Shown in pieces: positions 8,487 to 22,878 of a stretch of DNA of 64,000 nt. This stretch comes from an uncultured Alphaproteobacteria bacterium (GTDB taxonomy: Bacteria; Pseudomonadota; Alphaproteobacteria; Rhizobiales; Xanthobacteraceae): NCBI GenBank assembly GCA_963815955.1, contig CAWFIQ010000025.1:57020-121019 (forward strand). Reading direction: 5' to 3'. A program made the translations under genes and the position numbers. Position 1 is the first letter of the stretch. Each line of letters begins with the position of its first letter. Below the pieces are notes generated by a model. It saw nothing but the letters and a program-made list of their open reading frames with translations. It was not told where the DNA came from and searched no databases.

Positions 8487-9464
8487 TCAATGCATCTTGA
8501 TGTCAGCCTCTTTCAGCACCGGCTCCCACTTCGCGGCTTCGGCGCGCATGAAGGCGTCGAAATCCTTTGGCGAATTGCCGACCGGTGTGGCGCCCATCTT
8601 TTCCAGCGCGGTCAGAACCACCGGATCTTTCAGGGCGGCGGCAAGATCAGCATGGATCTTGGCGACCAGATCGGGCGCCATGCCGGCGGGGCCGAGAAAA
8701 CCCCACCAGACCGAGGCGTCATAGCCGGGGATGCCTGATTCCGCGACGGTCGGAACGTCGGGCAACGCCTTCGAGCGCTGGGCCGTCGTCACCGCAAGCG
8801 CGCGCACCGCATTGCCTTCGAGCTGGCCGACCACCTCGGGCAGCGGATTGACGCTGATCGGAATCTCGCCGGCGATGACGGCGGTCAGCGCAGGGGCGCC
8901 GCCCTTGTAGGGGATCGACTGGATCTTGACCTTGGCCATGTATTTGAGAAGCTCGCCGGCGAGATGGGCCGAGGTGCCGTTGCCGGACATGCCGTACGAT
9001 AATGACTCCGGTTTTGCGCGCGCGGTCGCCAGCAACTCCTGCAAATTCTTGATTGGGCTGTTTTGGGCCACCACGATCGCGAGCGGCGAATAGGCCACCT
9101 CGCTGATGGCGGTGAAGTCCTTGAAGGTGTCGTAGGGCAATTTTGGATAGAAGAACTGGTTCAGCGGATGGCCGCTTGCCACCAGGATCAGCGTGTAGCC
9201 GTCCGGCGCCGATTGCGTCAGCGCCTGCGACGCGATGATCCCGCCGGCGCCCGGACGGTTTTCAATGACCGGCTGCTGCCCCCAGGTTTTCGACAGCGAT
9301 TGCCCGAGCGTGCGCGCCAGCACGTCGACGGCGCCGCCGGCGGCGTAGGGCACCAGGATGCGCACGGGCTTGCTCGGGAAGGAGTCCGCGTAGACGTTCG
9401 TGCCGGCCAGCGAAAACAGCGCGGCGGCAAGTGTGCAGCGGATGAATGCTCTGCGTGGGATCAT
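8487..9464 (-). CDS. Bug/TctC tripartite tricarboxylate transporter substrate-binding protein
   Basis: Twin-Arg leader, FPSKPVRILVPYAAGGAVDVLAR, ENRPGAGG, PYKGGAPA. Confidence 0.92.
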   Translation of the reverse strand: MIPRRAFIRCTLAAALFSLAGTNVYADSFPSKPVRILVPYAAGGAVDVLARTLGQSLSKTWGQQPVIENRPGAGGIIASQALTQSAPDGYTLILVASGHPLNQFFYPKLPYDTFKDFTAISEVAYSPLAIVVAQNSPIKNLQELLATARAKPESLSYGMSGNGTSAHLAGELLKYMAKVKIQSIPYKGGAPALTAVIAGEIPISVNPLPEVVGQLEGNAVRALAVTTAQRSKALPDVPTVAESGIPGYDASVWWGFLGPAGMAPDLVAKIHADLAAALKDPVVLTALEKMGATPVGNSPKDFDAFMRAEAAKWEPVLKEADIKMH

Positions 9465-10431: not shown

Positions 10432-10449
10432 TTTGTACAAACGTACAAA
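10432..10449. promoter_or_regulatory. Probable TetR operator
   Basis: Perfect inverted repeat TTTGTAC-aaac-GTACAAA 24 nt before the tetR start, in the divergent intergenic region. Confidence 0.65.
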
Positions 10450-10473: not shown

Positions 10474-11199
10474 ATGACGCGAAACCCGAATATGCGGGAA
10501 GCCATCCTGAGCGCGGCGGAGCTGTTGTTCTCGACGCGCGGCTTCAATGCCGTGTCGATCCGCGACATCGCGCTGGAAGCGGGCGCCAATCCGGGCAGCA
10601 TCACCTATCACTTCAAGAGCAAGGACGGGCTGCTGCTGGAAATCTACAAGCGCCATTGCGGGCCGATGAACAAGCGCCGCATCGAGTTGCTGGTGGCGGC
10701 ACGGCGCGTACGCGACGTTCAGGACCGGCTGGAGGCGATCGTGCGGGCCTATGTGCAGCCGGCGTTTTCATCCAGCAGCGACCTCGCCGGCGGCGGAGCG
10801 CGGTTCACGCGGCTGCGGGCCGTGATGTCGGCCGAAGGCAACGCCGTGGTGGGCCGCATCATCGCCGAGATTTTCGACGACACTACCCATGCCTTCATCG
10901 AGGCGATCGAGGAAAGCCTGCCGCATCTGCCGCGGACCACGATCGTGTGGCGGTCGCAATTCCTGCTCGGCGCACTCTATTATACCCTCGTCAGCCCGGA
11001 GCGGGTCACGAGGCTGTCGCGCGGCGAAGCCGATGGCGCCGATATGGCGGAAGCGATCGAGCAACTCGTCTCGGCGACGGTCGCCTCGTTGCAGGCGCCC
11101 GATGTCGATCACATCGGCTCCGCGTCCCCTCGGACGAAGCAAGCCCAGCCTCCGGCAAAAGGCGCCGCTGGCAAGCGGAAAGAAAATTCGGCTTCATGA
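10474..11199 (+). CDS. TetR/AcrR family regulator
   Basis: N-terminal HTH AILSAAELLFSTRGFNAVSIRDIA...ITYHFKSK. Confidence 0.93.
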   Translation: MTRNPNMREAILSAAELLFSTRGFNAVSIRDIALEAGANPGSITYHFKSKDGLLLEIYKRHCGPMNKRRIELLVAARRVRDVQDRLEAIVRAYVQPAFSSSSDLAGGGARFTRLRAVMSAEGNAVVGRIIAEIFDDTTHAFIEAIEESLPHLPRTTIVWRSQFLLGALYYTLVSPERVTRLSRGEADGADMAEAIEQLVSATVASLQAPDVDHIGSASPRTKQAQPPAKGAAGKRKENSAS

Positions 11200-11245
11200 A
11201 GTTCGAGGCGCCGTGAAGCGCAACCAAAACACTGCAGAAGGCACC

Positions 11246-12115
11246 ATGCACAAGCCGACGATCCCCGGACCCGATCCCGATACGCGAACGCCGAAATTCA
11301 AACTTCCGGCGCTGGCGTGTGACGCGCATACCCACATCTTCGGCCCCGGTGACAAATACCCGTACGCGCCGGGGCGGCCCTATACGCCGCCCGATGCGCC
11401 GCTGGAGGATTTCCGGGCGCTGCACAAGAAGATCGGGATCGGCCGCGCCGTCATCGTCAACGCCAGCGTGCACGGCACCGACAACCGCGTGGCGCTCGAT
11501 GCCATCGCCGTGAGCAACGGCACCTTTCGTGCCGTCGCCAATATCGACGATACCATTACCGAGCACGGGCTTCGCGAGCTGCATGAAGGCGGCTTCCGCG
11601 GCTGCCGCTTCAACTTCGTGCGCCATCTCGGCGGGGTGCCCGATATGGCGGTCTTTCACCGCATCGTCGCGATGGTCGCGCCGCTCGGCTGGCATATCGA
11701 TCTGCATTTCGACGCGATCGACCTGCCCGAATATGCCGGGATGCTGGCAAAATTGCCGGTGCGTTACACCATCGATCACATGGGGCGCGTCAAGGCGTCC
11801 GACGGCCTCGACCAGCTACCGTTCCGGACGCTGATTGACCTGATGACCCGGGACGAGAAATGCTGGGTCAAGGTGTGCGGCTGCGAGCGGGTATCGTCGG
11901 GCGGACCGCCGTTCCATGACGCGGTGCCTTTTGCTCGCCGTATCATCGAGACCGCGCCCGATCGCGTGATCTGGGGGACCGACTGGCCGCACCCGAACGT
12001 CAAGGTGATGCCGAACGACGGCGATCTGGTCGACCTCATTCCGCTGTTTGCGCCGGAGCTGGATCTGCAGCAGAAGATCCTGGTCGACAATCCGGCGCGG
12101 CTGTTCGAATTTTGA
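11246..12115 (+). CDS. Amidohydrolase_2, 2-pyrone-4,6-dicarboxylate lactonase (LigI)-like
   Basis: CDAHTHIFGP, IDHMGR, VIWGTDWPHPN, ILVDNPARLF. Confidence 0.82.
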   Translation: MHKPTIPGPDPDTRTPKFKLPALACDAHTHIFGPGDKYPYAPGRPYTPPDAPLEDFRALHKKIGIGRAVIVNASVHGTDNRVALDAIAVSNGTFRAVANIDDTITEHGLRELHEGGFRGCRFNFVRHLGGVPDMAVFHRIVAMVAPLGWHIDLHFDAIDLPEYAGMLAKLPVRYTIDHMGRVKASDGLDQLPFRTLIDLMTRDEKCWVKVCGCERVSSGGPPFHDAVPFARRIIETAPDRVIWGTDWPHPNVKVMPNDGDLVDLIPLFAPELDLQQKILVDNPARLFEF

Positions 12116-12128
12116 GGGAGCGCGTGCG

Positions 12129-13133
12129 ATGGCGGACAAACACGAGCGATACACAATGAGCCGGCGCCGCGCGTCGTTCGCCGGGATGGCTGCGCTGGCG
12201 GCGGCATTGTTGCTGCCGCAAATCGCCCACGCGCAAAACTATCCGAACCGGCCGGTGCGGCTGATCCTGCCGTTCGGCGCCGGCGGTGTCGCCGACGTCA
12301 CCGCGCGGCTCGTCACCGAGAAACTCGGCGAAAAGCTTGGTCAGCGCTTCGTCATCGAGAACATGGCGGGAGCGGGGGGTATCACTGCCGCGCGCGCCGT
12401 GCTTTCCGCACCTCCGGACGGCTACACACTGGCGCTGCTGAGCAATGGCACGGCCATCTCGGTATCGTTGTTCAAGAGCCTTGGCTTCAATCCGGTGACC
12501 GATTTCGTTCCGGTTTCGAGCATGGGCTATTTCGACTTCATCTTCGTGACGCAAGCCGGTTCGCCATATCCGACGCTGGCTGAATTCATCAAGGCGGCCA
12601 AGGCAAAGCCCGGCACGCTCAATGTCGGCACCATCAATGTCGGGTCGACCCAGAACCTTTCGGCGCAATTGTTCAAATCGACCGCCGGTGTCGATGTCAC
12701 CATCGTGCCGTTCCGCAGTTCGCCCGATGTGCTGATCGCGCTGCTGCGCGGCGATATCCAGATGGCGATCGAGAATTACAGCGCGGTGCAGTCGCATGTT
12801 GCCGACAAGGCCGCCATCGCCGTGGCGTCTTCGGGCCCGGTCCGCACTTCGTTCCTGCCGGATGTGCCGACGGTGAAGGAGGCGGGCGGCGGCGACTTCG
12901 AGGCGCGGTCCTGGAATGCGATCTTTGCACCCAAGGGCACGCCGCCCGAAGTGGTCGCGACGCTGAACGCCGCGCTGCGCGAGGTGCTCGAGATGCCGGA
13001 GCTCAAGAAGCGCGCACTCGATCTCGGCATCGAGGCCAAGGCAAGCTCGCCTGAGGAAATCCGCGACCGGTTGAAAGCCGATATCGACAAATGGGTTCAG
13101 GTGATCGATCGCGCAGGAATTGCCCTACAATAG
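12129..13133 (+). CDS. Bug/TctC substrate-binding protein
   Basis: YPNRPVRLILPFGAGGVADVTAR; C-terminal Bug signature. Confidence 0.92.
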   Translation: MADKHERYTMSRRRASFAGMAALAAALLLPQIAHAQNYPNRPVRLILPFGAGGVADVTARLVTEKLGEKLGQRFVIENMAGAGGITAARAVLSAPPDGYTLALLSNGTAISVSLFKSLGFNPVTDFVPVSSMGYFDFIFVTQAGSPYPTLAEFIKAAKAKPGTLNVGTINVGSTQNLSAQLFKSTAGVDVTIVPFRSSPDVLIALLRGDIQMAIENYSAVQSHVADKAAIAVASSGPVRTSFLPDVPTVKEAGGGDFEARSWNAIFAPKGTPPEVVATLNAALREVLEMPELKKRALDLGIEAKASSPEEIRDRLKADIDKWVQVIDRAGIALQ

Positions 13134-13188
13134 TCACGCGGCCGGTGCGGCCGGCCGCGTGCAGCAAACGAAGGAGGAAATCCCGATC

Positions 13189-13914
13189 ATGAGCAATGCT
13201 GGCAAAACGGGCCTGGTCGTTACGGCGCATCCCGGCGACTTCGTCTGGCGCGCGGGCGGCGCGATCGCGCTGCACGCCAAAAAAGGCTACCGCATCAAGA
13301 TCGCCTGCCTGTCGTTCGGCGAGCGCGGCGAGAGCCAGTTCGCCTGGAAGGAGGCGGGCGCGACGATGGAGAAGGTCAAGGCGGGTCGGCGCGACGAGGC
13401 GCAGCGCGCAGCGGAGATGCTGGGCGCAGAGATTGAATTCTTCGACGCCGGCGATTATCCGCTGCGGCTGACGGAGGCGCATTTCGACCGCATGGTCGAT
13501 ATCTACCGCGAACTCAACCCGTCCTTCGTGCTGACCCACGCGCTGGAAGATCCCTATAATTTCGATCATCCGAATGCGGCGCACTTCGCCCAGGAAACCC
13601 GGGTGGTCGCGCAGGCGATGGGCCACAAGCCCGGCGCCAAATACACCTATTCCGCGCCGCCGGTGTTCCTGTTCGAACCGCATCAGCCGGAGATGTGCAA
13701 TTTCAAGCCGCAGGTGATCCTCAACATCGACGAGGTCTGGGAGATCAAGCGCAAGACGTTCGAGATCCTCGCCGCGCAGAAGCATCTGTGGGCTTACTAT
13801 GAGCGGGTCGCGCTGCAGCGGGGCGTGCAGGGCGGTCGCAATACCGGCAAGCCGATGACCTATGGCGAGGCCTATCAGCGGCTGTTCCCGATGGCGATGG
13901 AGGAACTGGCATGA
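13189..13914 (+). CDS. galB: PIG-L family protein, 4-oxalomesaconate hydratase GalB-like
   Basis: VVTAHPGDFVWRAGG, LSFGERGES, DPYNFDHP, FEPHQPE. Confidence 0.8.
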   Translation: MSNAGKTGLVVTAHPGDFVWRAGGAIALHAKKGYRIKIACLSFGERGESQFAWKEAGATMEKVKAGRRDEAQRAAEMLGAEIEFFDAGDYPLRLTEAHFDRMVDIYRELNPSFVLTHALEDPYNFDHPNAAHFAQETRVVAQAMGHKPGAKYTYSAPPVFLFEPHQPEMCNFKPQVILNIDEVWEIKRKTFEILAAQKHLWAYYERVALQRGVQGGRNTGKPMTYGEAYQRLFPMAMEELA

Positions 13915-14603
13915 AGACGGTCGTCGTCCGCAACATCAAGCGCACAGAGGCCGAACTCGTCAAACGGTTAGGCGCGTTCGGCGTCGCCACCGCGCATGAG
14001 GCCTATGGCCGCTTCGGGCTGATGAAGCCGTATCTGCGCCCCGTTTGGAGTGGGGCCGAAACATCGGGCACCGCCGTGACCGTGCTGGCGCAGCCCGGCG
14101 ATAATTGGATGATCCATGTCGCGGTCGAGCAGTGCCAGCCCGGCGACATTCTGGTGGTCGGCTGCACAGCTGACAATACCGACGGCATGTTCGGCGATCT
14201 GCTCGCGACCTCGCTGATGGCGCGCGGCGTTCGCGGCCTCATCATCGATGCCGGCGTTCGCGACGCCAAATCGCTGCGTGAAATGGGCTTTCCGGTGTGG
14301 TCGAAGGCGATCTCGGCCAAGGGCACGGTGAAGGCGACGCTCGGCGCGGTCAACGTGCCCGTGGTCTGCGCCGGGATCAACGTGGTGCCGGGCGATGCGG
14401 TCGTCGCCGACGATGACGGCGTCGTGGTGATCCGCCGCAAGGATGCGGCCGACGTGGTCGCCAAGGGCGAGAAACGCGTTGCCGACGAGGACGGCAAGCG
14501 CAAGCAGTTGGCGGCGGGCGTGCTCGGGCTCGACATGTACAAGATGCGCGAGCCGCTGGCGAAAGCCGGCCTCGTCTATGTCGACAAGCTGGAGGAAGAC
14601 TGA
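13911..14603 (+). CDS. ligK: 4-carboxy-4-hydroxy-2-oxoadipate aldolase (HMG/CHA aldolase, RraA-like)
   Basis: GVATAHEAYGR, PGDNWMIHVA, FGDLLATSL, IDAGVRD; ATGA overlap with galB. Confidence 0.9.
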   Translation: MKTVVVRNIKRTEAELVKRLGAFGVATAHEAYGRFGLMKPYLRPVWSGAETSGTAVTVLAQPGDNWMIHVAVEQCQPGDILVVGCTADNTDGMFGDLLATSLMARGVRGLIIDAGVRDAKSLREMGFPVWSKAISAKGTVKATLGAVNVPVVCAGINVVPGDAVVADDDGVVVIRRKDAADVVAKGEKRVADEDGKRKQLAAGVLGLDMYKMREPLAKAGLVYVDKLEED

Positions 14604-14610
14604 GGTGGCG

Positions 14611-15456
14611 ATGCGTCTGCGCACCTTGCTCGGTGACCATCCCGGTACGTCCGCGCTGAAGAACGGGTCGATCAGGTCGGATCTGGTCGAGTTCGATTTC
14701 GCGCCGTATTCGCCGACCAACAAGGGTTTCAAGCCGATGGTCCGCGAAGGGGCGTTCGACGTCTCGGAGATGGCGATCGTCACCTATCTGATGGCAAGAT
14801 CTTTCGGCAAGCCGATGGTGCTGTTGCCCGATGTCGTGCTGGCGCGGTTCCAGCACGGGCACGCGCTCTACAATGCGAAGACGGGAAAACTCGCGCCGCG
14901 CGATCTCAACGGCAAGCGCGTCGGCATTCGCTCCTTCACCACCACGACCGGTGCTTGGCTGCGCGGCATTCTTGCCAATGATTATGGCGTCGATCTCAAT
15001 TCGATCGACTGGGTGACGTTCGAGGACGCGCATGTCGCCGAATTCGTCGATACGACCAAGCGGGCGCTCGCGGGCAAGCAGATCGTGCAGATGCTGATCG
15101 ACGGCGAGCTTGATGCGGTGCTGGGCGAGAAATCGGACCATCCGGATTTGAAGCCGCTGTTTGCCGATGTCGCGGCCGAAGAGAAGGCCTGGTTCGGGAA
15201 ACACAAGGTGGTGCCGATCAACCACATGGTGGTGGTGAGCGGGACTTTGTCCGACCAGCACCCGGACGTGGTGCGGGAGGTCCATCGGTTGCTCGTCGAA
15301 TCTGCTGCGGCTTCTTCCGCTGCGCCGCGTTTTGACCGGGGCGAGATGCAGCGCTCGCTGGAGCTGATTATCGATTATTCGGCGCAGCAAAAGCTCGTTC
15401 CACGCGCGTTCACCGTCGATGAGCTGTTCGACGATGTAACGCGGGCACTTTGGTAA
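14611..15456 (+). CDS. 4,5-dihydroxyphthalate decarboxylase-like protein (SBP-like fold)
   Basis: FDVSEMAIVTYL, RFQH, LNGKRVG, WLRGIL...YGVD, PINHMVVV. Confidence 0.7.
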   Translation: MRLRTLLGDHPGTSALKNGSIRSDLVEFDFAPYSPTNKGFKPMVREGAFDVSEMAIVTYLMARSFGKPMVLLPDVVLARFQHGHALYNAKTGKLAPRDLNGKRVGIRSFTTTTGAWLRGILANDYGVDLNSIDWVTFEDAHVAEFVDTTKRALAGKQIVQMLIDGELDAVLGEKSDHPDLKPLFADVAAEEKAWFGKHKVVPINHMVVVSGTLSDQHPDVVREVHRLLVESAAASSAAPRFDRGEMQRSLELIIDYSAQQKLVPRAFTVDELFDDVTRALW

Positions 15457-15468
15457 CACCCGCACGGT

Positions 15469-15572
15469 GTCATCATCCGCGAAGGCGGATGATCCAGTAC
15501 CCCGGGGCCTCTCGGGTCGAAGCACGGCGTACTCTGGAATACTGGGTCGCCCGCGCTTTCGCGGAGGATGAC
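15469..15572. repeat. REP/RIME-like palindromic repeat inside the operon
   Basis: Terminal GTCATC/GATGAC, internal hairpins, CTCTGGAATACTGGGTC core shared with the repeat at 313-367. Confidence 0.8.
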
Positions 15573-15602
15573 GAGCCGAGAACTACGGATCAGGAGAACA
15601 AC

Positions 15603-16553
15603 ATGACCCCCGAGCCGATTTTCGATCTCGCCCATCTCGGCCACATGGAATTGCTGACGCCGAAGCCGGACGAGAGCCTGAAATTCTTCGTCGACGTCAT
15701 GGGCATGACGGTCAGCGGCCAGAAGGGTAAGTCGGTCTATCTGCGCGGCTGGGACGATTACGAGCGCTATTCGCTCAAGCTGACGGCCTCGAAAACGTCG
15801 GGCATGGAGCACATGGCGCTACGCGCCCGCAGCCCGCAGGCGCTGGAGCGCCGCGTCGTGGCGCTGAAGGGCTCCGGCTTCGACATCGGCTGGGTTGACG
15901 GCGACATGGGGCAGGGGCCGGCGTTCCGCTGCCGCGACCCCGATGGTCATATCGTCGAACTCTATTACGAGACCGAATGGTATCAGGCCCCGCCTGAGCT
16001 CAAGCCGGCGCTGAAGAACCAGGCGCAGCGGTTTCCGGCGCGCGGCGTCAACGTCCGACGGCTCGACCACCTCAATTGCCTTGCGGTGGACATCAGGGCC
16101 AACCGGCTCTTCTTCGAGAACTATCTGGGCCTGCGCACCACCGAACAGATCGTGCTCAACGACGGCACGGAAGCCGCGATGTGGATGACGATGTCGAACA
16201 AGAGCTACGACTTCGCCTATACCCGCGATCATTATGGCAAGGCCGGCCGCTTCCATCACGTCACCTACGCGCTCGACAGCCGCGAGGAAATCCTGCGCGC
16301 CGCCGATATCTTTCTCGAAAATGGCATCCACATCGAGACCGGTCCGCACAAGCATGCGATCCAGCAGACGTTCTTCCTCTACGTCTACGAGCCCGGCGGC
16401 AACCGCGTCGAGGTCGCCAACGCCGGCGCCCGCCTGATCCTGGCACCCGATTGGAAACCGATCATCTGGACCGAGGAAGAGCGCAAGAAGGGCCAGGCGT
16501 GGGGGCTGAAGACGATCGAGTCGTTCCATACGCACGGCACGCCGCCGGTGTGA
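15603..16553 (+). CDS. Catechol 2,3-dioxygenase-type (VOC) extradiol dioxygenase
   Basis: AHLGHMEL, RRLDHLN, RFHHVTY, GPHKHAIQQTFFLYVYEPGGNRVE. Confidence 0.88.
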   Translation: MTPEPIFDLAHLGHMELLTPKPDESLKFFVDVMGMTVSGQKGKSVYLRGWDDYERYSLKLTASKTSGMEHMALRARSPQALERRVVALKGSGFDIGWVDGDMGQGPAFRCRDPDGHIVELYYETEWYQAPPELKPALKNQAQRFPARGVNVRRLDHLNCLAVDIRANRLFFENYLGLRTTEQIVLNDGTEAAMWMTMSNKSYDFAYTRDHYGKAGRFHHVTYALDSREEILRAADIFLENGIHIETGPHKHAIQQTFFLYVYEPGGNRVEVANAGARLILAPDWKPIIWTEEERKKGQAWGLKTIESFHTHGTPPV

Positions 16554-16680
16554 GAGCCCCGCCGGGATCGTCGATCGCGTTCAAAATACGGCAAGGGTCG
16601 ACCAAAAGTGTGAGCCTTGCAGCTTCACTGTCGCGCACCATCTTGGTCGGGTGGCGAAGTGGACAGTGTGGAACGGCGCG

Positions 16681-17893
16681 ATGGCACAGCGTGTGGATTT
16701 CGATTTCACCAGCGAGTCGTTTTTTCGTGATCCGCAGGCCGGCGTCGCGCAACTGCGGTCGATCGGTCCTGCCGTCGCGACGAAATTCCCGATCGTAGGC
16801 CGCGTCTGGGTGACCACGACCTATGAAGCGACGGCGCGGGTGCTGAAGGAAAGCACGTTGTTCACGCTGCGTAAGGAGGGCGGGGCGCTCGTGAGCCTGC
16901 CCTGGTGGATGCCGAAGGCGATCGGAGCGGTCGCCAATAATATGCTGACGATGGATGAGCCAGACCACACGCGGCTGCGCAACATCGTCGATGAGGCGTT
17001 CCGCCGCCGCGCTGTGCTCGACATGGAACCGCATATCCGCGCCATCGCCGATCGCCTCGCCGATGAATTGTTTCGCGATGGCAGTCCTGCCGACCTCGTG
17101 CAGCGCTATGCGCGGATACTGCCGCTATCCGTAATTTGCGAATTGCTCGGCCTGCCGCCGGCCGACCGGCCGAAATTTATCGCATGGGCCAATTCGATGG
17201 CGCATCTCACCAGCGCATTCGGCTTTCTGCGGCTGATCGGCGGGCTCTTCAGGATGCGCCGCTATCTAAAGGGGCGTCTGCAGGTCGCTCGGGAACAGGG
17301 CGGCGAGGGACTGATCGCCGAACTGGTGCGCGTCGAAAAGGAGGGCGGGCGCATCACGCCGGACGAGATGGTCTCGATGGTGTTTCTGCTGCTCGGCGCC
17401 GGGTCGGAGACCACGACGCACCTGATCAGCGGATCGGTGTTTCGAATTGCTGAAGGACCCGGCTCGGCGCGATTGGCTCGCATCCGACTGGAGCCGCGCC
17501 GGGCTGGCGATCGAAGAATTTTTGCGTTTCGTCTCGCCGGTGCAATTCTCCAAGCCGCGCTACGTGCGCCAGGATGTCGATCTCGAAGGCGTGAAGCTGA
17601 AGAAGGGCGACAGGGTGATGGCGATGATCGTCGCCGCCAATCTGGACGCCGACGCGAACGAGTGTCCCGAACGCCTCGATCTCGAGCGGCGGCCGAACCG
17701 GCATCTCGCGTTCGGTACCGGAATTCATTTCTGCCTCGGCCATCAGCTGGCGCGGATCGAAGGGATCTGCGCGCTGCAGGCGCTGTTCACGCGCTGGCCG
17801 GGATTAAAGCTGGCGGTCGAGCCATCACAAATTCATTGGCGGAGACGGCCCGGCATTCGCATGATTGCGGAGTTGCCGGTAACGGCGGTCTAA
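16681..17893 (+). pseudogene. Cytochrome P450 with a +1 frameshift at 17440-17442 (may be an assembly error)
   Basis: AGSETT, EEFLR (ExxR) and heme motif FGTGIHFCLG lie in two frames; removing one T from GTGTTTCGAA gives GSVFELLKDP. Confidence 0.85.
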
Positions 17894-18288
17894 ACAAGCC
17901 GAAAGACGGGAAGCCCGAGTTCCGGATTGGTGGTCTCGACAAACTCGCAAGTCACGCGAGCGCCGCAGCGCACATCTTGAGGAGGACAATCGATCACATT
18001 GCTTAGAATTCGCCCGCCATCGTCAAGTCTGACGAACGCAACAATATACGGCTCCTTGCCCTTCCATTCGGCCTGAGCCGGCCTTCGTACGATTGAAAAC
18101 GTCTCGATGGCGCCTTTGCCCTCACTCTCGCGCCAGGCAATCGGGCTGCGGCAGGTCGGGCACCGTTCCGCCGGCGGCCAGCAGAAATGGCCTTGCTCAA
18201 CGCAGAAAGGCAACAGCAGCCGGCCTTCGCGCGCGGCCGTCCAGTGCGGGGTGGCTTCGCGGCCGCTTCGGGGGGCAGAGTATTTCAT
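17890..18288 (-). CDS. Zn-ribbon/OB-fold DUF35 protein
   Basis: LPFC...FCWPPAERCPTC, GAIETFSIV, PYIVAFVRLDDG; own ATG at 18288 overlaps the thiolase stop (ATGA). Confidence 0.88.
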   Translation of the reverse strand: MKYSAPRSGREATPHWTAAREGRLLLPFCVEQGHFCWPPAERCPTCRSPIAWRESEGKGAIETFSIVRRPAQAEWKGKEPYIVAFVRLDDGGRILSNVIDCPPQDVRCGARVTCEFVETTNPELGLPVFRLV

Positions 18289-19443
18289 ACGGCCTCCAGC
18301 AAAAGGACGCCGTGTGTTGCAAACAGGCCGCCCATTCCATGTGTCATGGTCATTCGTGCGTTCGGGATCTGGCGCACGCCGGCCTCGCCGCGAAGCTGCA
18401 CGACGGCTTCTATCAGATTTCCAATTCCGGCCGCTCGGCCGGGGTAGCCATGCGATAGCAAGCCGCCGTGCGTATTGATCGGCAATCGTCCATCTCCGTT
18501 TGAATTCACCGCCGCGAAAGGCCGCACCCGCTCGTCCCTTCGCTGCAAAGCCGAGATCCTCGACATTGATGAGCATGGCGATCGAGAAGCAGTCGTAGAC
18601 CAGCGCGACATCGATATCGTCGCGCGAGCGGCTGGCGAACGACAGAGCCCGATCAAGCGCCAGACCGGCGCCATGTTTCGTGAGCGATGATGCCGCTGAA
18701 AGGTGAAGGTGCGTGGTGGAAAATCCCGCTCCGATCACGGCCGCGGGCCTCTTGCCGCCTTTGCCCGAGCGCTCCGCAGTTGTCACTACGACAGCGGCTC
18801 CGCCGTCCGAAACCGGAGAGCAGTCCAGCAGGCGAAGCGGGTCTGCTATCATGTGGCTCGCGGTGTAACCGGCAAAGTCCATCGGCGCGCGCATATGCGA
18901 ATTCGGATGCGTGATAGCGGCTGCCCGGTCGTGCAACGCAACGGCGCCAAGATCGTTTTCGTCCGCGCCAAATTCGTTCATGTAGGCGCGCGCCACCATT
19001 CCGAACAGTGACGGCACAGTCGGGCCGAACGGCCTTTCGATATCGGGATGAACGGGTCCGGAATCGGCAAGCGTATTGACGTAGGAATCACGTGTGTTGA
19101 CGCTAAGAGGCATATCGGCCGAAACGATCAGGACGGTCGTCGCCGAGCCGCCTTCGATCATGTTGCGCGCCATATCGACCATGATGGCCGGCGCCGCGCC
19201 GCCACCTTCCAGGGTAAGCGTGACGGCAGGCGCAATGCCAAGATATTCGGCGAATGCCGCGGCGTGGATGAGATATGAATCCGAGCGCGGCGCAAGCGTG
19301 AGGATGGCGTCAACGTCGCTCAGTTCGAGACCGGCGTCGGCGAGTGCCTGCAAAGCCAGCCGTTCATGAAGCGCCATCGGCGTAACGCCCGGAATCTTGC
19401 CGTGCACCGGCTCTGCGATACCGGCTATCATCACATTGCGCAT
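18285..19443 (-). pseudogene. Thiolase-family protein (SCP2/Ltp2-like) with a +1 frameshift at 18499-18501
   Basis: CSPVSDGGAAVVV and VYDCFS in one frame; INTHGGLLSHGY and GMGG in the next; removing one base gives GEFNGDGRLPIN. Confidence 0.85.
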
Positions 19444-19474: not shown

Positions 19475-20854
19475 CTATTCGTTGGTTGCGGAAATCTGGC
19501 TTGCATGTCGATTCGCGGGGCGGCGCAAGCCCAGATGATTGCGAAGGGTGTTACCCGAGTAGTTGGTTCGGAACAATCCGCGGCGCTGCAGCTCCGGAAT
19601 GACGAGGTTGACGAAGTCGTCAAATCCGCCGGGAAGATAAGATGCCTGAATGATGAAGCCGTCCGCGGCCTCGGTCGTAAGCCACTCTTCCATTTGATCC
19701 GCGATGTGAGACGGCGTCCCAACGACGGAGTAGGAGCCGCGGGAGCCGGCATAGCGCTCGTAAAGCTCGCGGATGGTAAGCTTCTCCTGCTGTGCCACGC
19801 CGCCAACCGTCTTCAGGCGGCTCATGCTCGATCTGGTCTTCTCAGGGATCAAGTGATCGGGAATTGGTTCGTCGATCGATAGTCCGGACAGGTCCGCGCC
19901 GCCGAGGTCTACGCTCAGCAATTCCTTGCCGACTTCGGGATGGATAAGGGCTTGAAGCTGGTCGAACTTCGATTGGGCCTCCGCGGCGGTGCGGCCAACG
20001 GTGGGATTGAGGCCGGCAAGCATCTTCAATTGATCGGGAGCGCGGCCAAACTTTGCCATGCGTCCTTTGACGTCGGAATAGAATTCGCGCGCTTTCTCGA
20101 TGCGTTGCTGGGAAAAGAAGATCACGTCGGCAGTTTCCGCGCCGAGTTCCTTGCCATCTTCCGATGCGCCGGCCTGGGCAATGACCGGATATCCCTGGGG
20201 TGGACGCGCCAGATTGAGCGGTCCGCGGACCGAGAAGAATTTTCCCTTGTGATCGAGCCTGTGAAGCTTGGCCGGGTCGAAATAGCGGCGGGTTGTGCGG
20301 TCCCTCAGAAAGGCATCGTCTTCCCAGCTGTCCCACAGCCCAAGCACGACCTGCACAAACTCCCGGGCCCGTTCGTATCGTTCGGCGATGTCATAATGTT
20401 CATCGCGATTGAAATTGAAGCTGGCGGACGCGTTCGCCGAAGTAACCACATTCCAGCCGGCGCGACCGCCGCTGATGTGGTCGAGCGAGCCGAACAGCCG
20501 TGCAACGTTGAATGGTTCATAATAGCTGGTCGAAGCCGTGCACACGAGGCCGATCTGTTCTGTCACGGCTGCCGCCGCCGCCAGCAATGTAACGGGCTCG
20601 AAATGCGCCATGTATTGCGGCCACCTGGACAGCGCTTCCATGTTGCCATCGCGGGTCGCCACCGCGTCGGCCATGAAGACGAAGTCGAATTTGGCTCGCT
20701 CGGCGGCTTGCGCCAATTTGACGAAGTAGGGGAAGTTCTGCCCTGCGTCGATTTGCGATTGCGGATGCAGCCACGCAGCGATGTGCTGTCCCATCGAAGG
20801 GAAGTGGGCTCCCAATACAAGCTGCTGCTTCTCTCCGGGCACTCTTGAACTCAC
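19475..20854 (-). CDS. LLM-class flavin-dependent monooxygenase (NtaA/SnaA/DszA family)
   Basis: AERAKFDFVFMAD, LDHISGGRAGWNVVTS, PVIAQAGAS, VIPELQRRGLFR. Confidence 0.93.
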   Translation of the reverse strand: MSSRVPGEKQQLVLGAHFPSMGQHIAAWLHPQSQIDAGQNFPYFVKLAQAAERAKFDFVFMADAVATRDGNMEALSRWPQYMAHFEPVTLLAAAAAVTEQIGLVCTASTSYYEPFNVARLFGSLDHISGGRAGWNVVTSANASASFNFNRDEHYDIAERYERAREFVQVVLGLWDSWEDDAFLRDRTTRRYFDPAKLHRLDHKGKFFSVRGPLNLARPPQGYPVIAQAGASEDGKELGAETADVIFFSQQRIEKAREFYSDVKGRMAKFGRAPDQLKMLAGLNPTVGRTAAEAQSKFDQLQALIHPEVGKELLSVDLGGADLSGLSIDEPIPDHLIPEKTRSSMSRLKTVGGVAQQEKLTIRELYERYAGSRGSYSVVGTPSHIADQMEEWLTTEAADGFIIQASYLPGGFDDFVNLVIPELQRRGLFRTNYSGNTLRNHLGLRRPANRHASQISATNE

Positions 20855-21889: not shown

Positions 21890-22878
21890 ATGCTGAGCCG
21901 AAGAACACTCCTGACAGCCGCGTTGGCGTCCTCGGCGCTTTCGCTTGGATCACGGCGCGCGGCGGCAGAACGAATACCCCAACCGAGCTGATCCGGCTGA
22001 TCGTGGGCTATGCGACCGGGGGCAACGTCGATGTTCCGGCCAGGCTCTTTGCGCCGGAGCTGCAAAGAATTCTGGGGGCTCCCGTCATCATCGAAAACCG
22101 GCCCGGCGCCAGTGGCATTACCGCCGCTGAAGCCGTCGCCCGTATGCCGCCGGATGGCTACAACATCATCTGGGGTACATCGGCCAGCCACAGCGTTTCG
22201 GTGGTTGCGATGGCTGCGTTGCCGTTCGACCCCGTAAAGGATTTTGCACCGATCACGTTGATCAGTGCGGATCCCAATGTGATCGTGGCCAGCAAGGCGT
22301 TTCCGGCAGCGGACTCGATCGATGCCTTCCTTGCGTACGTGAAGGCCAATCCCGGAACGGCAATCGGGACGTCGGGTCCCGCCACCTCTGGAAGATTTGC
22401 CGTCGAGCTTATGAAGCCGAAAATGGGCGTGGAATTGACCATCGTGCCCTACAAGTCCACCGGGCCGCTGCTGACGGATTTGGCCGGAGGGCATATTCCA
22501 CTCGGGATAATGGGCGCATCGACCGCAGTACCCTTCATCCGCGAAAAAAGTATCCGGGCAATCGCCATGACGAGCCTTCGTCGCTCGATCGTGCTGCCTG
22601 ACGTTCCTACCTTCAACGAAACCGTTTCGAAGGGGTTCGATGCCGTCGCCTGGAGCGCGCTGTTCGCGCCTCCCGGCACGCCCGATGCCATCATCGGCAA
22701 GATCAACGCGGCCATGAAGGAAGCGGCGGAAGTGCCCGCCATCAAGAAGTGGTTCATGGAATCCGGGCTCGAAGTTCCCATGAGTTCACCGGCAGAACTC
22801 ACGGCCTTCATGAAGGCCGACATCGAAAAATGGGTGCAGGTCGCCAAGGACAACAACCTGAAAATCGATATGCAGTAG
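21890..22878 (+). pseudogene. Bug/TctC substrate-binding protein with an N-terminal frame disruption (about 21969-21987)
   Basis: Tat-like leader MLSRRTLL, then YPNR, then LIRLIVGYATGG lie in three different frames. Confidence 0.8.

What the first reader, a model, noticed from the sequence alone, without database searches (positions are those of the whole stretch)
10474..17893. Hybrid aromatic operon: lower protocatechuate/gallate pathway fed by a VOC dioxygenase instead of LigAB
Seen: tetR - LigI-like - bug - galB - ligK - PhtD-like - catechol-2,3-dioxygenase-type, then a P450. No LigAB/GalA, LigC dehydrogenase or LigU/GalD tautomerase is in the window. Established: PDC -> OMA -> CHA -> pyruvate + oxaloacetate uses LigI, LigJ/GalB and LigK; cleavage of 3-O-methylgallate yields PDC without LigC; gallate cleavage yields OMA directly. 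Inference: a type I (VOC) enzyme may open a gallate, 3-O-methylgallate or dihydroxyphthalate-derived ring, which would be an unusual entry route. The P450 could act as an O-demethylase, but its linkage is uncertain.
Basis: partly seen in the sequence, partly recalled or inferred. Interest (0 to 1): 0.58.

Follow-up and report, generated by a model that had tools for sequence, protein, structure and literature searches.

The report
Gallate-type operon with VOC-fold ring-cleavage dioxygenase
A soil Bradyrhizobium has the last enzymes for breaking down gallate and related lignin or tannin phenolics next to a ring-opening enzyme of a different protein fold from the textbook one; the genome has no textbook ring-opener or isomerase, so this is probably an undescribed alternative entry to a known pathway, though nothing has been assayed.

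Summary
The gene order is real: tetR, LigI-like lactonase, TctC/Bug, GalB, LigK, PhtD-like protein, type I (VOC) extradiol dioxygenase, then a P450 broken by one extra T.

The 95%-complete genome has no LigB-family dioxygenase, no PrpF (LigU/GalD), no LigC orthologue and only one LigK. It does have pcaHG for protocatechuate and two VanA-type demethylases.

Of 80 species-level loci around VOC homologues, 37 carry galB and/or ligK within 10 kb. Of those, 34 also carry the PhtD-like gene, often 15-25 nt upstream of the VOC gene. A Rhodospirillales locus reads VOC-galB-ligK-PrpF.

The VOC enzyme keeps the Fe triad but has Tyr where XylE and AphC, aligned here, have the catalytic His. Polar residues replace AphC's alkyl pocket.

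Best reading: it cleaves gallate or 3-O-methylgallate to oxalomesaconate/PDC. The PhtD-like protein most likely fills the missing isomerase step. All of this is inferred; there are no assays.

Earlier notes in this scan report the VOC-GalB-GalC pairing on other DNA (Acidobacteria, Actinobacteria, Anaerolineae). The PhtD-like replacement and a DUF1932 accessory gene are what this window adds.

I class it as a new variant of a known kind.

The parts
10432..10449 (.). Operator-like site TTTGTACAAACGTACAAA, about 25 nt upstream of tetR. It contains the 10-nt perfect palindrome TTTGTACAAA.
   Evidence: Read from the sequence. The 16-nt core is exactly conserved upstream of tetR in L014, L015, L016, L017, L026, L063 and L080. 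Function is inferred.
10474..11199 (+). TetR-family repressor (TetR_N plus TetR_C_30), 241 aa
   Evidence: Pfam 60 and 90 bits. It heads the operon in 25 of 37 related loci.
11246..12115 (+). LigI-like lactonase (Amidohydro_2), 289 aa; probable 2-pyrone-4,6-dicarboxylate hydrolase
   Evidence: PDB 4d8l LigI, 217 bits. It keeps LigI residues His31, His33, His180, Asp248, Arg124 and Tyr49. Arg130 becomes His (with Arg one residue earlier) and Tyr156 becomes His. NCBIfam sulfomuconolactone hydrolase scores 296 bits, below the 500 cut-off. The gene is an optional module, present in 17 of 37 operon loci.
12156..13133 (+). TctC/Bug periplasmic solute-binding protein, 325 aa
   Evidence: Pfam TctC 188 bits. 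It is 60% identical to the TctC that heads the canonical LigAB clusters of other Bradyrhizobium (L099:3060-3953). Present in 10 of 37 operon loci.
13189..13914 (+). GalB-type 4-oxalomesaconate / 4-carboxy-2-hydroxymuconate hydratase (PIG-L fold), 241 aa
   Evidence: PDB 5cgz (P. putida GalB), E 3e-87, 295 bits; Pfam PIG-L.
13911..14603 (+). LigK/GalC 4-carboxy-4-hydroxy-2-oxoadipate aldolase (RraA-like), 230 aa
   Evidence: TIGR02798 351 bits (cut-off 304.5) and NF006731 374 bits (cut-off 179). It is the only copy above the cut-off in the genome. Its start overlaps the galB stop by 4 nt.
14611..15456 (+). PhtD-family protein (cytoplasmic periplasmic-binding-protein-like fold), 281 aa. Proposed CHM/OMA tautomerase-isomerase; the alternative is an aromatic decarboxylase.
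   Evidence: AF2 model pLDDT 98. Best PDB match is 9jp7 (C. testosteroni PhtD), TM 0.88, 23% identity. Family profile against 9jp7 gives E 4e-55. His84, Thr112, Trp116, Arg118 and His205 are shared with PhtD; Arg107, His141 and Asn204 are family-specific. Present in 34 of 37 operon loci. It starts 7 nt after ligK.
15472..15493 (+). 9-nt perfect inverted repeat (ATCATCCGC / GCGGATGAT) in the 146-nt gap before the dioxygenase gene
   Evidence: Function unknown; there is no T tract.
15603..16553 (+). Two-domain type I (VOC) extradiol-type dioxygenase, 316 aa; proposed gallate / 3-O-methylgallate ring-cleavage enzyme
   Evidence: TIGR03211 362 bits (cut-off 320). PDB 9wgj 404 bits (about 58% identity), AphC 3lm4/7q2a 251 bits, XylE 117 bits. 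The His/His/Glu triad and the His249 and Tyr258 equivalents are kept. Tyr replaces the catalytic His199/200 (motif KSYDFAY). AphC pocket residues Met205, Leu296 and Phe309 are Thr, Gln and His here.
16651..17893 (+). CYP107-like cytochrome P450, split by a +1 frameshift (extra T at about 17439-17441)
   Evidence: The N-terminal part reads in the frame of 16651. The haem-Cys motif FGTGIHFCLG lies in the frame of 17447-17893. Alignment with the intact orthologue L063 shows a single-base insertion. The best PDB match of the orthologue is Vdh, 238 bits.

Best explanation
This is a TetR-controlled operon for meta-cleavage of gallate-type trihydroxybenzoates. The likely substrates are gallate and/or 3-O-methylgallate, arising for example from syringate through the genome's VanA-type demethylases.

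Proposed steps:
1. The VOC-fold dioxygenase opens the ring between two oxygen-bearing carbons. The product is therefore an acid, 4-carboxy-2-hydroxymuconate/4-oxalomesaconate (CHM/OMA), not a semialdehyde. Part of it forms 2-pyrone-4,6-dicarboxylate (PDC), by cyclisation or by methanol loss from the methyl ester.
2. The LigI-like lactonase reopens PDC.
3. The PhtD-family protein most likely carries out the tautomerisation/isomerisation to 2-keto-4-carboxy-3-hexenedioate, the step that LigU/GalD performs elsewhere.
4. GalB hydrates that product to 4-carboxy-4-hydroxy-2-oxoadipate.
5. LigK splits it into pyruvate and oxaloacetate.

The Bug/TctC protein is the likely uptake receptor.

Shown here: gene identities, the absence of the canonical enzymes, synteny, and the active-site differences.
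Inferred: the substrate, the product and the role of the PhtD-like protein. For that last point alone I give about 0.5.
For: 1. GalB and LigK are secure. The LigI-like protein keeps LigI's catalytic residues.

2. The genome lacks every canonical upstream enzyme: LigB family, PrpF and LigC. It also lacks the DUF1932 accessory gene. It does have pcaHG, 381 bits above the cut-off, so protocatechuate already has a route. It has two VanA-type oxygenases.

3. Linkage. 37 of 80 species loci around VOC homologues carry galB and/or ligK. The gap from the PhtD-like gene to the VOC gene is 15-25 nt in 13 loci. Three loci have the operon divergent from VOC. The Rhodospirillales locus L087 is VOC-galB-ligK-PrpF plus an ABC transporter. 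L013 is PrpF-galB-ligK-DUF1932-VOC.

4. Genus sample of 121 genomes: VOC in 94, GalB in 83, both in 81. 34 GalB-positive genomes have no LigB hit, and 33 of those have VOC. 15 of 18 genomes with a strong LigAB lack VOC.

5. The minimal operon (tetR-galB-ligK-PhtD-like-VOC) has only four enzymes. This matches the four-step GalA-D logic and leaves no room for a semialdehyde dehydrogenase.

6. VOC active site: Tyr replaces the His199/200 found in XylE and AphC. AphC's hydrophobic alkyl pocket becomes Thr/Gln/His, next to a conserved WTEEERKKGQAWG segment.

7. PhtD-like as isomerase:
- PrpF and the PhtD-like gene are mutually exclusive in VOC-galB-ligK loci.
- 55 of 83 GalB-positive genomes have no PrpF at all.
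- Compared gene for gene with the canonical Bradyrhizobium cluster (bug-lysR-ligU-ligJ-ligK-DUF1932-ligI-ligAB-ligC), the PhtD-like gene is the only unpaired gene and LigU the only unpaired function apart from LigC.
- Chemically, CHM is an open-chain analogue of 4,5-dihydroxyphthalate, and the first half-reaction of PhtD is the same vinylogous enol-to-keto protonation (my inference).
Against: - No biochemical data exist for any member of this VOC clade that I could find.
- The protein passes NCBI's catechol 2,3-dioxygenase equivalog cut-off.
- In many Bradyrhizobium (for example G005) the VOC gene stands alone, 22-28 kb from the operon, and a DUF1932 gene sits in its place.
- 13 genus genomes have VOC without GalB.
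- In this window a 146-nt gap with a hairpin separates VOC from the operon.
- AphC/XylE-type regiochemistry on a 4-carboxycatechol would give 2,3- rather than 4,5-cleavage, so the substrate would have to bind differently.
- Genus co-occurrence is confounded by shared ancestry.
- The PhtD-like protein keeps both His residues shared with a true decarboxylase, and an earlier scan note describes a PhtD-like gene beside a conventional catechol meta-cleavage pair.
- LigI is present without any known PDC-forming dehydrogenase. This fits 3-O-methylgallate but is not proof.
Confidence: 0.55

Rival explanations
1. The VOC enzyme is a protocatechuate 4,5-type dioxygenase that makes the semialdehyde CHMS. 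An unidentified dehydrogenase converts CHMS to PDC: the DUF1932/NAD_binding_2 protein in other strains, and something else here. LigI, the PhtD-like protein, GalB and LigK then finish a full protocatechuate meta-pathway.
For: LigI is present, and PDC is the LigC product in the canonical route. In variant operons LigI and DUF1932 occur together (G005). DUF1932 is paired with VOC in Acidobacteria and in L013. The Bug protein is 60% identical to the one in LigAB clusters.
Against: This genome has neither DUF1932 nor a LigC orthologue, and it already has pcaHG. Canonical LigAB clusters carry both LigC and DUF1932, so DUF1932 is not simply a LigC substitute. Minimal operons lack LigI altogether.
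Confidence: 0.15
2. The PhtD-like protein is a true non-oxidative decarboxylase. It feeds the pathway by converting a dicarboxylated dihydroxy- or trihydroxy-aromatic taken up through Bug (such as 4,5-dihydroxyphthalate or a carboxy-gallate) into protocatechuate or gallate. No dedicated isomerase is needed, because the VOC product is already the tautomer that GalB accepts. This rival concerns only the role of the PhtD-like protein and is compatible with the VOC part of the best explanation.
For: Full-length homology and fold match to PhtD: TM 0.88 and profile E 4e-55, with both conserved His kept. TctC receptors typically bind di- and tricarboxylates. An earlier scan note (e1-4305096) describes a PhtD-like gene upstream of a catechol meta-cleavage pair.
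Against: Identity to PhtD is only 23%. Three family-invariant residues (Arg107, His141, Asn204) are absent from PhtD. The gene is invariably present in the Bradyrhizobium operon (34 of 37 loci), whereas Bug is optional (10 of 37); that pattern suits a core step rather than a feeder. It is absent exactly where PrpF is present. No Rieske dioxygenase or dihydrodiol dehydrogenase lies nearby. One distant homologue sits next to an HpcH/HpaI aldolase.
Confidence: 0.25
3. The VOC gene is an ordinary (alkyl)catechol 2,3-dioxygenase that merely lies next to the operon. The lower-pathway genes act on PDC/OMA taken up from the environment, or on the product of an unrecognised ring-cleavage enzyme.
For: TIGR03211 scores above its cut-off. 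The gene is near-core in the genus and often stands alone. There is a 146-nt gap here. Bug plus LigI could in principle import and hydrolyse PDC.
Against: No HMS dehydrogenase, hydrolase or tautomerase genes accompany it in any locus examined. Linkage to galB-ligK recurs in other orders and with 15-25 nt spacing. The catalytic His is replaced and the pocket is polar. Minimal operons have no LigI or Bug, so they need an in-operon ring opener.
Confidence: 0.1

Closest known systems
Gallate (gal) pathway of Pseudomonas putida KT2440: GalA dioxygenase, GalD tautomerase, GalB hydratase, GalC aldolase
   Same: GalB is a close homologue (PDB 5cgz, 295 bits). GalC/LigK scores above the equivalog cut-off. 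The minimal operon of relatives follows the same four-step logic with no dehydrogenase.
   Different: GalA (LigB superfamily) is replaced by a VOC-fold enzyme. GalD (PrpF family) is absent from the genome, and a PhtD-family protein sits in its place. The regulator is TetR, not GalR (LysR). A TctC receptor replaces GalT/GalP. A LigI-like lactonase is added.
Protocatechuate 4,5-cleavage pathway (LigAB-LigC-LigI-LigU-LigJ-LigK of Sphingobium sp. SYK-6), and the canonical cluster of other Bradyrhizobium (L099)
   Same: LigI-like lactonase (44% identity to the Bradyrhizobium LigI, catalytic residues kept), LigK (66% identity), and the same TctC subfamily (60% identity).
   Different: No LigAB, LigC or LigU anywhere in the genome. 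The hydratase is GalB-type, not LigJ (amidohydrolase). Within the genus the two cluster types are nearly complementary: 15 of 18 genomes with a strong LigAB lack the VOC gene.
AphC of Rhodococcus jostii RHA1 (4-alkylcatechol 2,3-dioxygenase; PDB 3LM4/7Q2A; PMC9062432) and PDB 9WGJ (deposited as 'catechol 1,2-dioxygenase')
   Same: Same two-domain type I extradiol fold and the same sub-branch: 251 bits to AphC and 404 bits (about 58% identity) to 9WGJ. The Fe triad and the His249 and Tyr258 equivalents are conserved.
   Different: Catalytic His200 is Tyr here and in 9WGJ. AphC's alkyl pocket residues Met205, Leu296 and Phe309 are Thr, Gln and His. The genomic partners are GalB and LigK rather than a hydrolase/hydratase/aldolase meta-pathway. 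I found no publication for 9WGJ.
4,5-Dihydroxyphthalate decarboxylase PhtD (Comamonas testosteroni KF-1, PDB 9JP7)
   Same: Same fold (TM 0.88), full-length homology, and two shared conserved His plus Thr/Trp/Arg.
   Different: Only 23% identity. Three family-invariant residues are absent from PhtD. There is no phthalate dioxygenase or dihydrodiol dehydrogenase context. The gene is always embedded between ligK and the ring-cleavage gene.

Membership tests
Catechol 2,3-dioxygenase (type I extradiol, TIGR03211) | Two-domain VOC fold with a 2-His-1-carboxylate Fe(II) triad | tested here: met
   TIGR03211 362 bits against a 320 cut-off. The His (DHLN), His (FHHV) and Glu (NRVEV) align with the XylE and AphC ligands.
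Catechol 2,3-dioxygenase (type I extradiol, TIGR03211) | Second-sphere catalytic His (XylE His199 / HPCD His200 / AphC His200) | tested here: not met
   Tyr occupies this position (KSYDFAY against XylE KAHDVAF and AphC GHEVAC). Tyr is also present in 9wgj and in 102 of the 120 close homologues; in the other 18 a search motif did not match.
Catechol 2,3-dioxygenase (type I extradiol, TIGR03211) | Operon partners of the catechol meta-pathway (HMS dehydrogenase/hydrolase, 4-OT, hydratase, aldolase) | tested here: not met
   None was found in the window or in any related locus examined.
Gallate / protocatechuate 4,5-dioxygenases (LigB superfamily: GalA, DesB, DesZ, LigAB) | LigB catalytic domain (PF02900) | tested here: not met
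   No PF02900 match in the whole genome. The ring-cleavage candidate has a VOC fold.
Gallate pathway (GalA-D) | GalB hydratase and GalC/LigK aldolase | tested here: met
   5cgz at E 3e-87; TIGR02798 and NF006731 above their cut-offs.
Gallate pathway (GalA-D) | GalD/LigU PrpF-family isomerase | tested here: not met
   No PF04303 match in the genome. 55 of 83 GalB-positive genus genomes also lack it.
Gallate pathway (GalA-D) | Enzymatic conversion of gallate to pyruvate plus oxaloacetate | not testable with these tools
   Needs enzyme assays or growth and mutant experiments.
LigI (2-pyrone-4,6-dicarboxylate hydrolase) | Metal-free amidohydrolase with His31, His33, His180 and Asp248, plus carboxylate-binding Arg124 and Arg130 | tested here: inconclusive
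   His31, His33, His180, Asp248, Arg124 and Tyr49 are conserved. Arg130 is His (with Arg at the preceding position) and Tyr156 is His. The residue roles are recalled from the LigI structural literature, not re-read here.
Protocatechuate 4,5-cleavage pathway | LigC CHMS dehydrogenase (Gfo/Idh/MocA plus OxRdtase_C) | tested here: not met
   The Bradyrhizobium LigC (L099:11109-12068) finds only paralogues of 28-32% identity in the genome.
4,5-Dihydroxyphthalate decarboxylase (PhtD) | Homology and fold | tested here: met
   Profile E 4e-55; Foldseek TM 0.88, E 1e-23.
4,5-Dihydroxyphthalate decarboxylase (PhtD) | Context of phthalate 4,5-dioxygenase and dihydrodiol dehydrogenase; decarboxylase activity | tested here: inconclusive
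   No such genes lie in the window or in related operon loci. The two VanA_C-type oxygenases are on other contigs. Activity cannot be tested here.

The most novel reading that the evidence does not exclude
Two non-orthologous displacements operate together. (a) A clade of type I extradiol-fold dioxygenases that has swapped the catalytic His for Tyr is the gallate / 3-O-methylgallate ring-cleavage enzyme of many soil bacteria. (b) In Bradyrhizobium, a PhtD-family protein with a periplasmic-binding-protein-like fold has been recruited as a cofactor-free 4-carboxy-2-hydroxymuconate/oxalomesaconate tautomerase in place of LigU/GalD, possibly with decarboxylation towards 4-hydroxy-4-methyl-2-oxoglutarate.
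Probability: 0.3. Interest if true: 0.72.

Novelty: new variant of a known kind. Interest (0 to 1): 0.58.

Why it matters
Gallate and syringyl-derived phenolics are major products of tannin and lignin decay. Every published bacterial aerobic route I know of opens these rings with LigB-superfamily enzymes.

If the VOC-fold enzyme does this job, three things follow:
- Databases mislabel a very large protein family as catechol 2,3-dioxygenase. About 7,900 of the 8,000 candidates scored had E <= 0.001, and the best 120 are 79-98% identical, from Xanthobacteraceae, Microvirga and Acidobacteria.
- Metagenomic estimates of gallate and syringate turnover are biased.
- An extradiol-fold enzyme working without the canonical acid-base His becomes a useful mechanistic case.

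A PhtD-fold isomerase would also be a new activity for that fold. It would fill a real gap: 55 of the 83 GalB-carrying Bradyrhizobium genomes sampled have no PrpF enzyme.

The operon is compact and could be useful for engineering production of PDC or pyruvate from lignin streams.

Tried and rejected
- Paper searches for 9WGJ, 9JP7 and DUF1932 found nothing relevant: no paper holds 9WGJ or 9JP7, and the two DUF1932 hits are unrelated. Searches for combinations of gallate, oxalomesaconate and VOC/type I extradiol found no description of this pairing. The library lacks most subscription journals, so this is not proof of novelty.
- Pfam and NCBIfam gave no hit for the PhtD-like protein. The protein atlas returned only 'ABC substrate-binding protein' and PhtD labels.
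- Contexts of distant PhtD-like representatives were mostly on contigs too short to be decisive.
- The promoter/terminator scan was at background level.
- The tannase search is uninformative because its control did not ring.
- I considered the P450 as a CYP199- or GcoA-type O-demethylase. Its orthologue is nearest to CYP107/Vdh/PikC-type enzymes, so there is no support for that.
- I considered DUF1932 as a LigC substitute. Canonical clusters carry both, so I rejected it as a simple swap.
- I did not model the VOC enzyme. Only homologues of 79% identity or more were in hand for an alignment, and the tools give no coordinates for pocket analysis.

Full report
**Observation**

| Gene | Coordinates | Key evidence |
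|---|---|---|
| tetR | 10474-11199 | TetR_N plus TetR_C_30 |
| LigI-like Amidohydro_2 | 11246-12115 | PDB LigI 4d8l, 217 bits |
| TctC/Bug | 12156-13133 | Pfam TctC |
| GalB | 13189-13914 | PDB 5cgz, 295 bits |
| LigK | 13911-14603 | TIGR02798 351 bits, cut-off 304.5 |
| PhtD-like | 14611-15456 | No Pfam hit; PDB 9jp7, E 7e-19 |
| VOC dioxygenase | 15603-16553 | TIGR03211 362 bits, cut-off 320 |
| P450 | 16651-17893 | Split by a frameshift |

The gaps are 46, 40, 55, -4, 7, 146 and 97 nt.

The P450 is split. Its I-helix part reads in one frame and the haem-Cys motif in the next. Alignment with the intact orthologue of a close relative shows one extra T in a T run at about 17439-17441.

Upstream of tetR lies TTTGTACAAACGTACAAA (10432-10449). 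Its 16-nt core is exactly conserved in seven close relatives.

**What the genome lacks and has**

The window lies on contig 25 of a 6.85 Mb, 31-contig, 95%-complete assembly. Its nearest relatives are Bradyrhizobium genomes and MAGs.

Not found anywhere in it:
- LigB family, PF02900.
- PrpF family, that is LigU/GalD.
- A LigC orthologue, searched with the LigC of another Bradyrhizobium; the best hits are 28-32% identical.
- A DUF1932 protein.

LigK is single-copy above the cut-off. The genome does have pcaH/pcaG (381 bits, above the cut-off) and two VanA-type oxygenases. Protocatechuate therefore already has an ortho route. A trihydroxybenzoate such as gallate, which could arise by O-demethylation of syringate, is what would need a separate ring opener.

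**Linkage of the VOC gene to the lower pathway**

I fetched 80 species-level loci around VOC homologues (80-98% identity) and ran tblastn with the window's proteins against them.

- 37 loci carry galB and/or ligK within 10 kb.
- 34 of these also carry the PhtD-like gene.
- 17 carry ligI, 10 carry bug and 10 carry the P450.

The conserved core is tetR-galB-ligK-PhtD-like-VOC. ligI and bug are an optional insert.

The PhtD-like gene ends 15-25 nt before the VOC gene in 13 loci and 100-190 nt before it in 14, including this window's lineage. Three loci have the operon divergent from VOC, and two have it 6-7 kb away.

Outside the genus:
- A Rhodospirillales MAG has VOC-galB-ligK-PrpF followed by an ABC transporter (L087).
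- Another genome has PrpF-galB-ligK-DUF1932-VOC (L013).
- Acidobacteria pair DUF1932 with VOC.
- Microvirga pairs a Meth_synt_2 protein with it.

**Genus survey**

I searched 121 genomes. The tallies include one unpublished genome, G016; no conclusion depends on it.

| Feature | Genomes (of 121) |
|---|---|
| VOC | 94 |
| GalB | 83 |
| Both | 81 |
| GalB only | 2 |
| VOC only | 13 |

- 34 GalB-positive genomes have no LigB-family hit, and 33 of those have VOC.
- 15 of the 18 genomes with a strong (at least 269 bits) LigB lack VOC.
- These genomes are related, so the counts overstate independence. The cross-order synteny is the stronger argument.

**Cluster types**

Many japonicum-like genomes (for example G005) have tetR-ligI-galB-ligK-PhtD-like-DUF1932. 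Their VOC gene stands alone about 25 kb away, and the P450 with an FNR-like reductase lies about 5 kb upstream of the operon.

The canonical cluster in other Bradyrhizobium is bug-lysR-PrpF-LigJ-LigK-DUF1932-LigI-LigA-LigB-LigC.

Matching the two types function by function gives:

| Canonical (LigAB) cluster | VOC-type cluster |
|---|---|
| LigAB | VOC |
| LigJ | GalB |
| LigK | LigK |
| LigI | LigI-like |
| DUF1932 | DUF1932 (some strains) |
| Bug | Bug |
| LigU (PrpF) | PhtD-like gene is the only unpaired gene |
| LigC | none |

The lack of any LigC counterpart argues for substrates whose cleavage gives an acid rather than a semialdehyde, that is gallate or 3-O-methylgallate. LigI then makes sense for PDC formed by cyclisation or methanol loss. 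That step rests on established SYK-6 chemistry, which I recalled and did not re-read.

**The dioxygenase**

Its closest solved relatives:
- 9wgj, deposited as 'catechol 1,2-dioxygenase': 404 bits, about 58% identity. I found no paper for it.
- AphC of RHA1: 251 bits.
- XylE: only 117 bits.

Alignments to AphC, XylE and a second C23O show the Fe triad and the His249 and Tyr258 equivalents. They also show Tyr in place of the catalytic His199/200 (KSYDFAY). The Tyr is also in 9wgj and in 102 of the 120 close homologues; in the other 18 the search motif did not match.

The AphC paper (PMC9062432) defines the alkyl pocket as Trp192, Met205, Ile251, Leu296, Leu303 and Phe309. Here these positions are Trp, Thr, Ile, Gln, Ile and His. 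A conserved Arg/Lys-rich segment (WTEEERKKGQAWG) lies nearby. This is consistent with a polar or anionic substituent but proves nothing.

One caution: AphC/XylE regiochemistry on a 4-carboxycatechol would give 2,3-cleavage. OMA formation therefore needs a different binding pose.

**The PhtD-like protein**

- It models confidently (pLDDT 98). Its best structural match is C. testosteroni PhtD (TM 0.88, 23% identity).
- A 56-sequence family profile hits PhtD at E 4e-55. Shared residues are His84, Thr112, Trp116, Arg118 and His205. Family-specific residues are Arg107, His141 and Asn204.
- The family is sizeable: 317 representatives at E <= 1e-30. It is rare in Pseudomonadota outside this lineage: 7 of 401 genomes.
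- It is present in 34 of the 37 operon loci; of the three without it, one has PrpF and the other two show neither within the flank.
- 55 of 83 GalB-positive genomes have no PrpF at all, and where PrpF exists it lies far from galB.

My inference is as follows. 4-Carboxy-2-hydroxymuconate is an open-chain analogue of 4,5-dihydroxyphthalate. The first half-reaction of PhtD (protonation para to the hydroxyl) is the same vinylogous enol-to-keto shift that would convert it to 2-keto-4-carboxy-3-hexenedioate, the hydratase substrate. I give this isomerase role about 0.5 and a feeder-decarboxylase role about 0.25.

**Other components**

- The LigI-like protein keeps His31, His33, His180, Asp248, Arg124 and Tyr49. 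It differs at Arg130 and Tyr156.
- The P450 orthologue is CYP107-like. Its role is unknown.

**Comparison with earlier scan notes**

Notes from other windows report the same VOC plus GalB/GalC (plus GalD) operon in Acidobacteria, Actinobacteria and Anaerolineae. One also notes the missing His. These are AI notes and not independent evidence, but I reached the same points from this window's own data.

This window adds the PhtD-like gene in the isomerase slot, the LigI/Bug insert, the DUF1932 accessory gene shared with LigAB clusters, and the near-complementary genus distribution.

**Verdict**

The function remains unproven. I class it as a new variant of a known pathway, of moderate interest.

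Noticed in passing
window 17439-17441: A single extra T in a T run splits the P450 gene, judged against the intact 428-aa orthologue in L063.
   Followed up: partly
window 17890-19443 (-): One 517-aa ORF joins a thiolase-like N-terminal part (the match stops at about residue 315 of about 390) to a DUF35/ChsH2 OB-fold C-terminus through roughly 120 residues of low-complexity sequence. Most likely this is a frameshift fusing two adjacent genes.
   Followed up: no
L099:7981-8913, L098:9393-10325, L095:11262-12185: A DUF1932/NAD_binding_2 gene is a conserved, apparently undescribed member of Bradyrhizobium meta-cleavage clusters. It sits between ligK and ligI in canonical LigAB clusters (which also have LigC) and at the end of the VOC-type operon in japonicum-like strains. 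It is present in 71 of 121 genus genomes and absent from this genome.
   Followed up: partly
genus genomes G008, G009, G019, G042, G077: In five genomes the DUF1932 gene of the VOC-type operon shows one in-frame TAG or TGA within an otherwise full-length match of 92-94% identity. This could be decay, recoding or sequencing error.
   Followed up: no
L011:7981-9966; L012:3574-5745: The same VOC dioxygenase (83% identity) is paired with only a DUF1932 dehydrogenase-like gene in Acidobacteria, and with a Meth_synt_2 (MetE C-terminal-like) gene plus a branched-chain-type ABC transporter in Microvirga. No galB or ligK lies nearby in either.
   Followed up: partly
window 8487-9464 (-), 12156-13133 (+), 22003-22878 (+): There are three TctC/Bug receptor genes within 15 kb, and no TctA/TctB was noticed among the ORFs examined. 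The upstream pair TctC(-)/SBP_bac_3(-) is syntenic with G005.
   Followed up: no
window about 34000: G+C drops from about 0.63 to about 0.55 downstream of 34 kb. This matches the island described in earlier notes on this window.
   Followed up: no
window 19475-20854 (-): A luciferase-like monooxygenase (459 aa) lies just beyond the thiolase/DUF35 pair. It may belong to a separate acyl-CoA-type catabolic unit.
   Followed up: no
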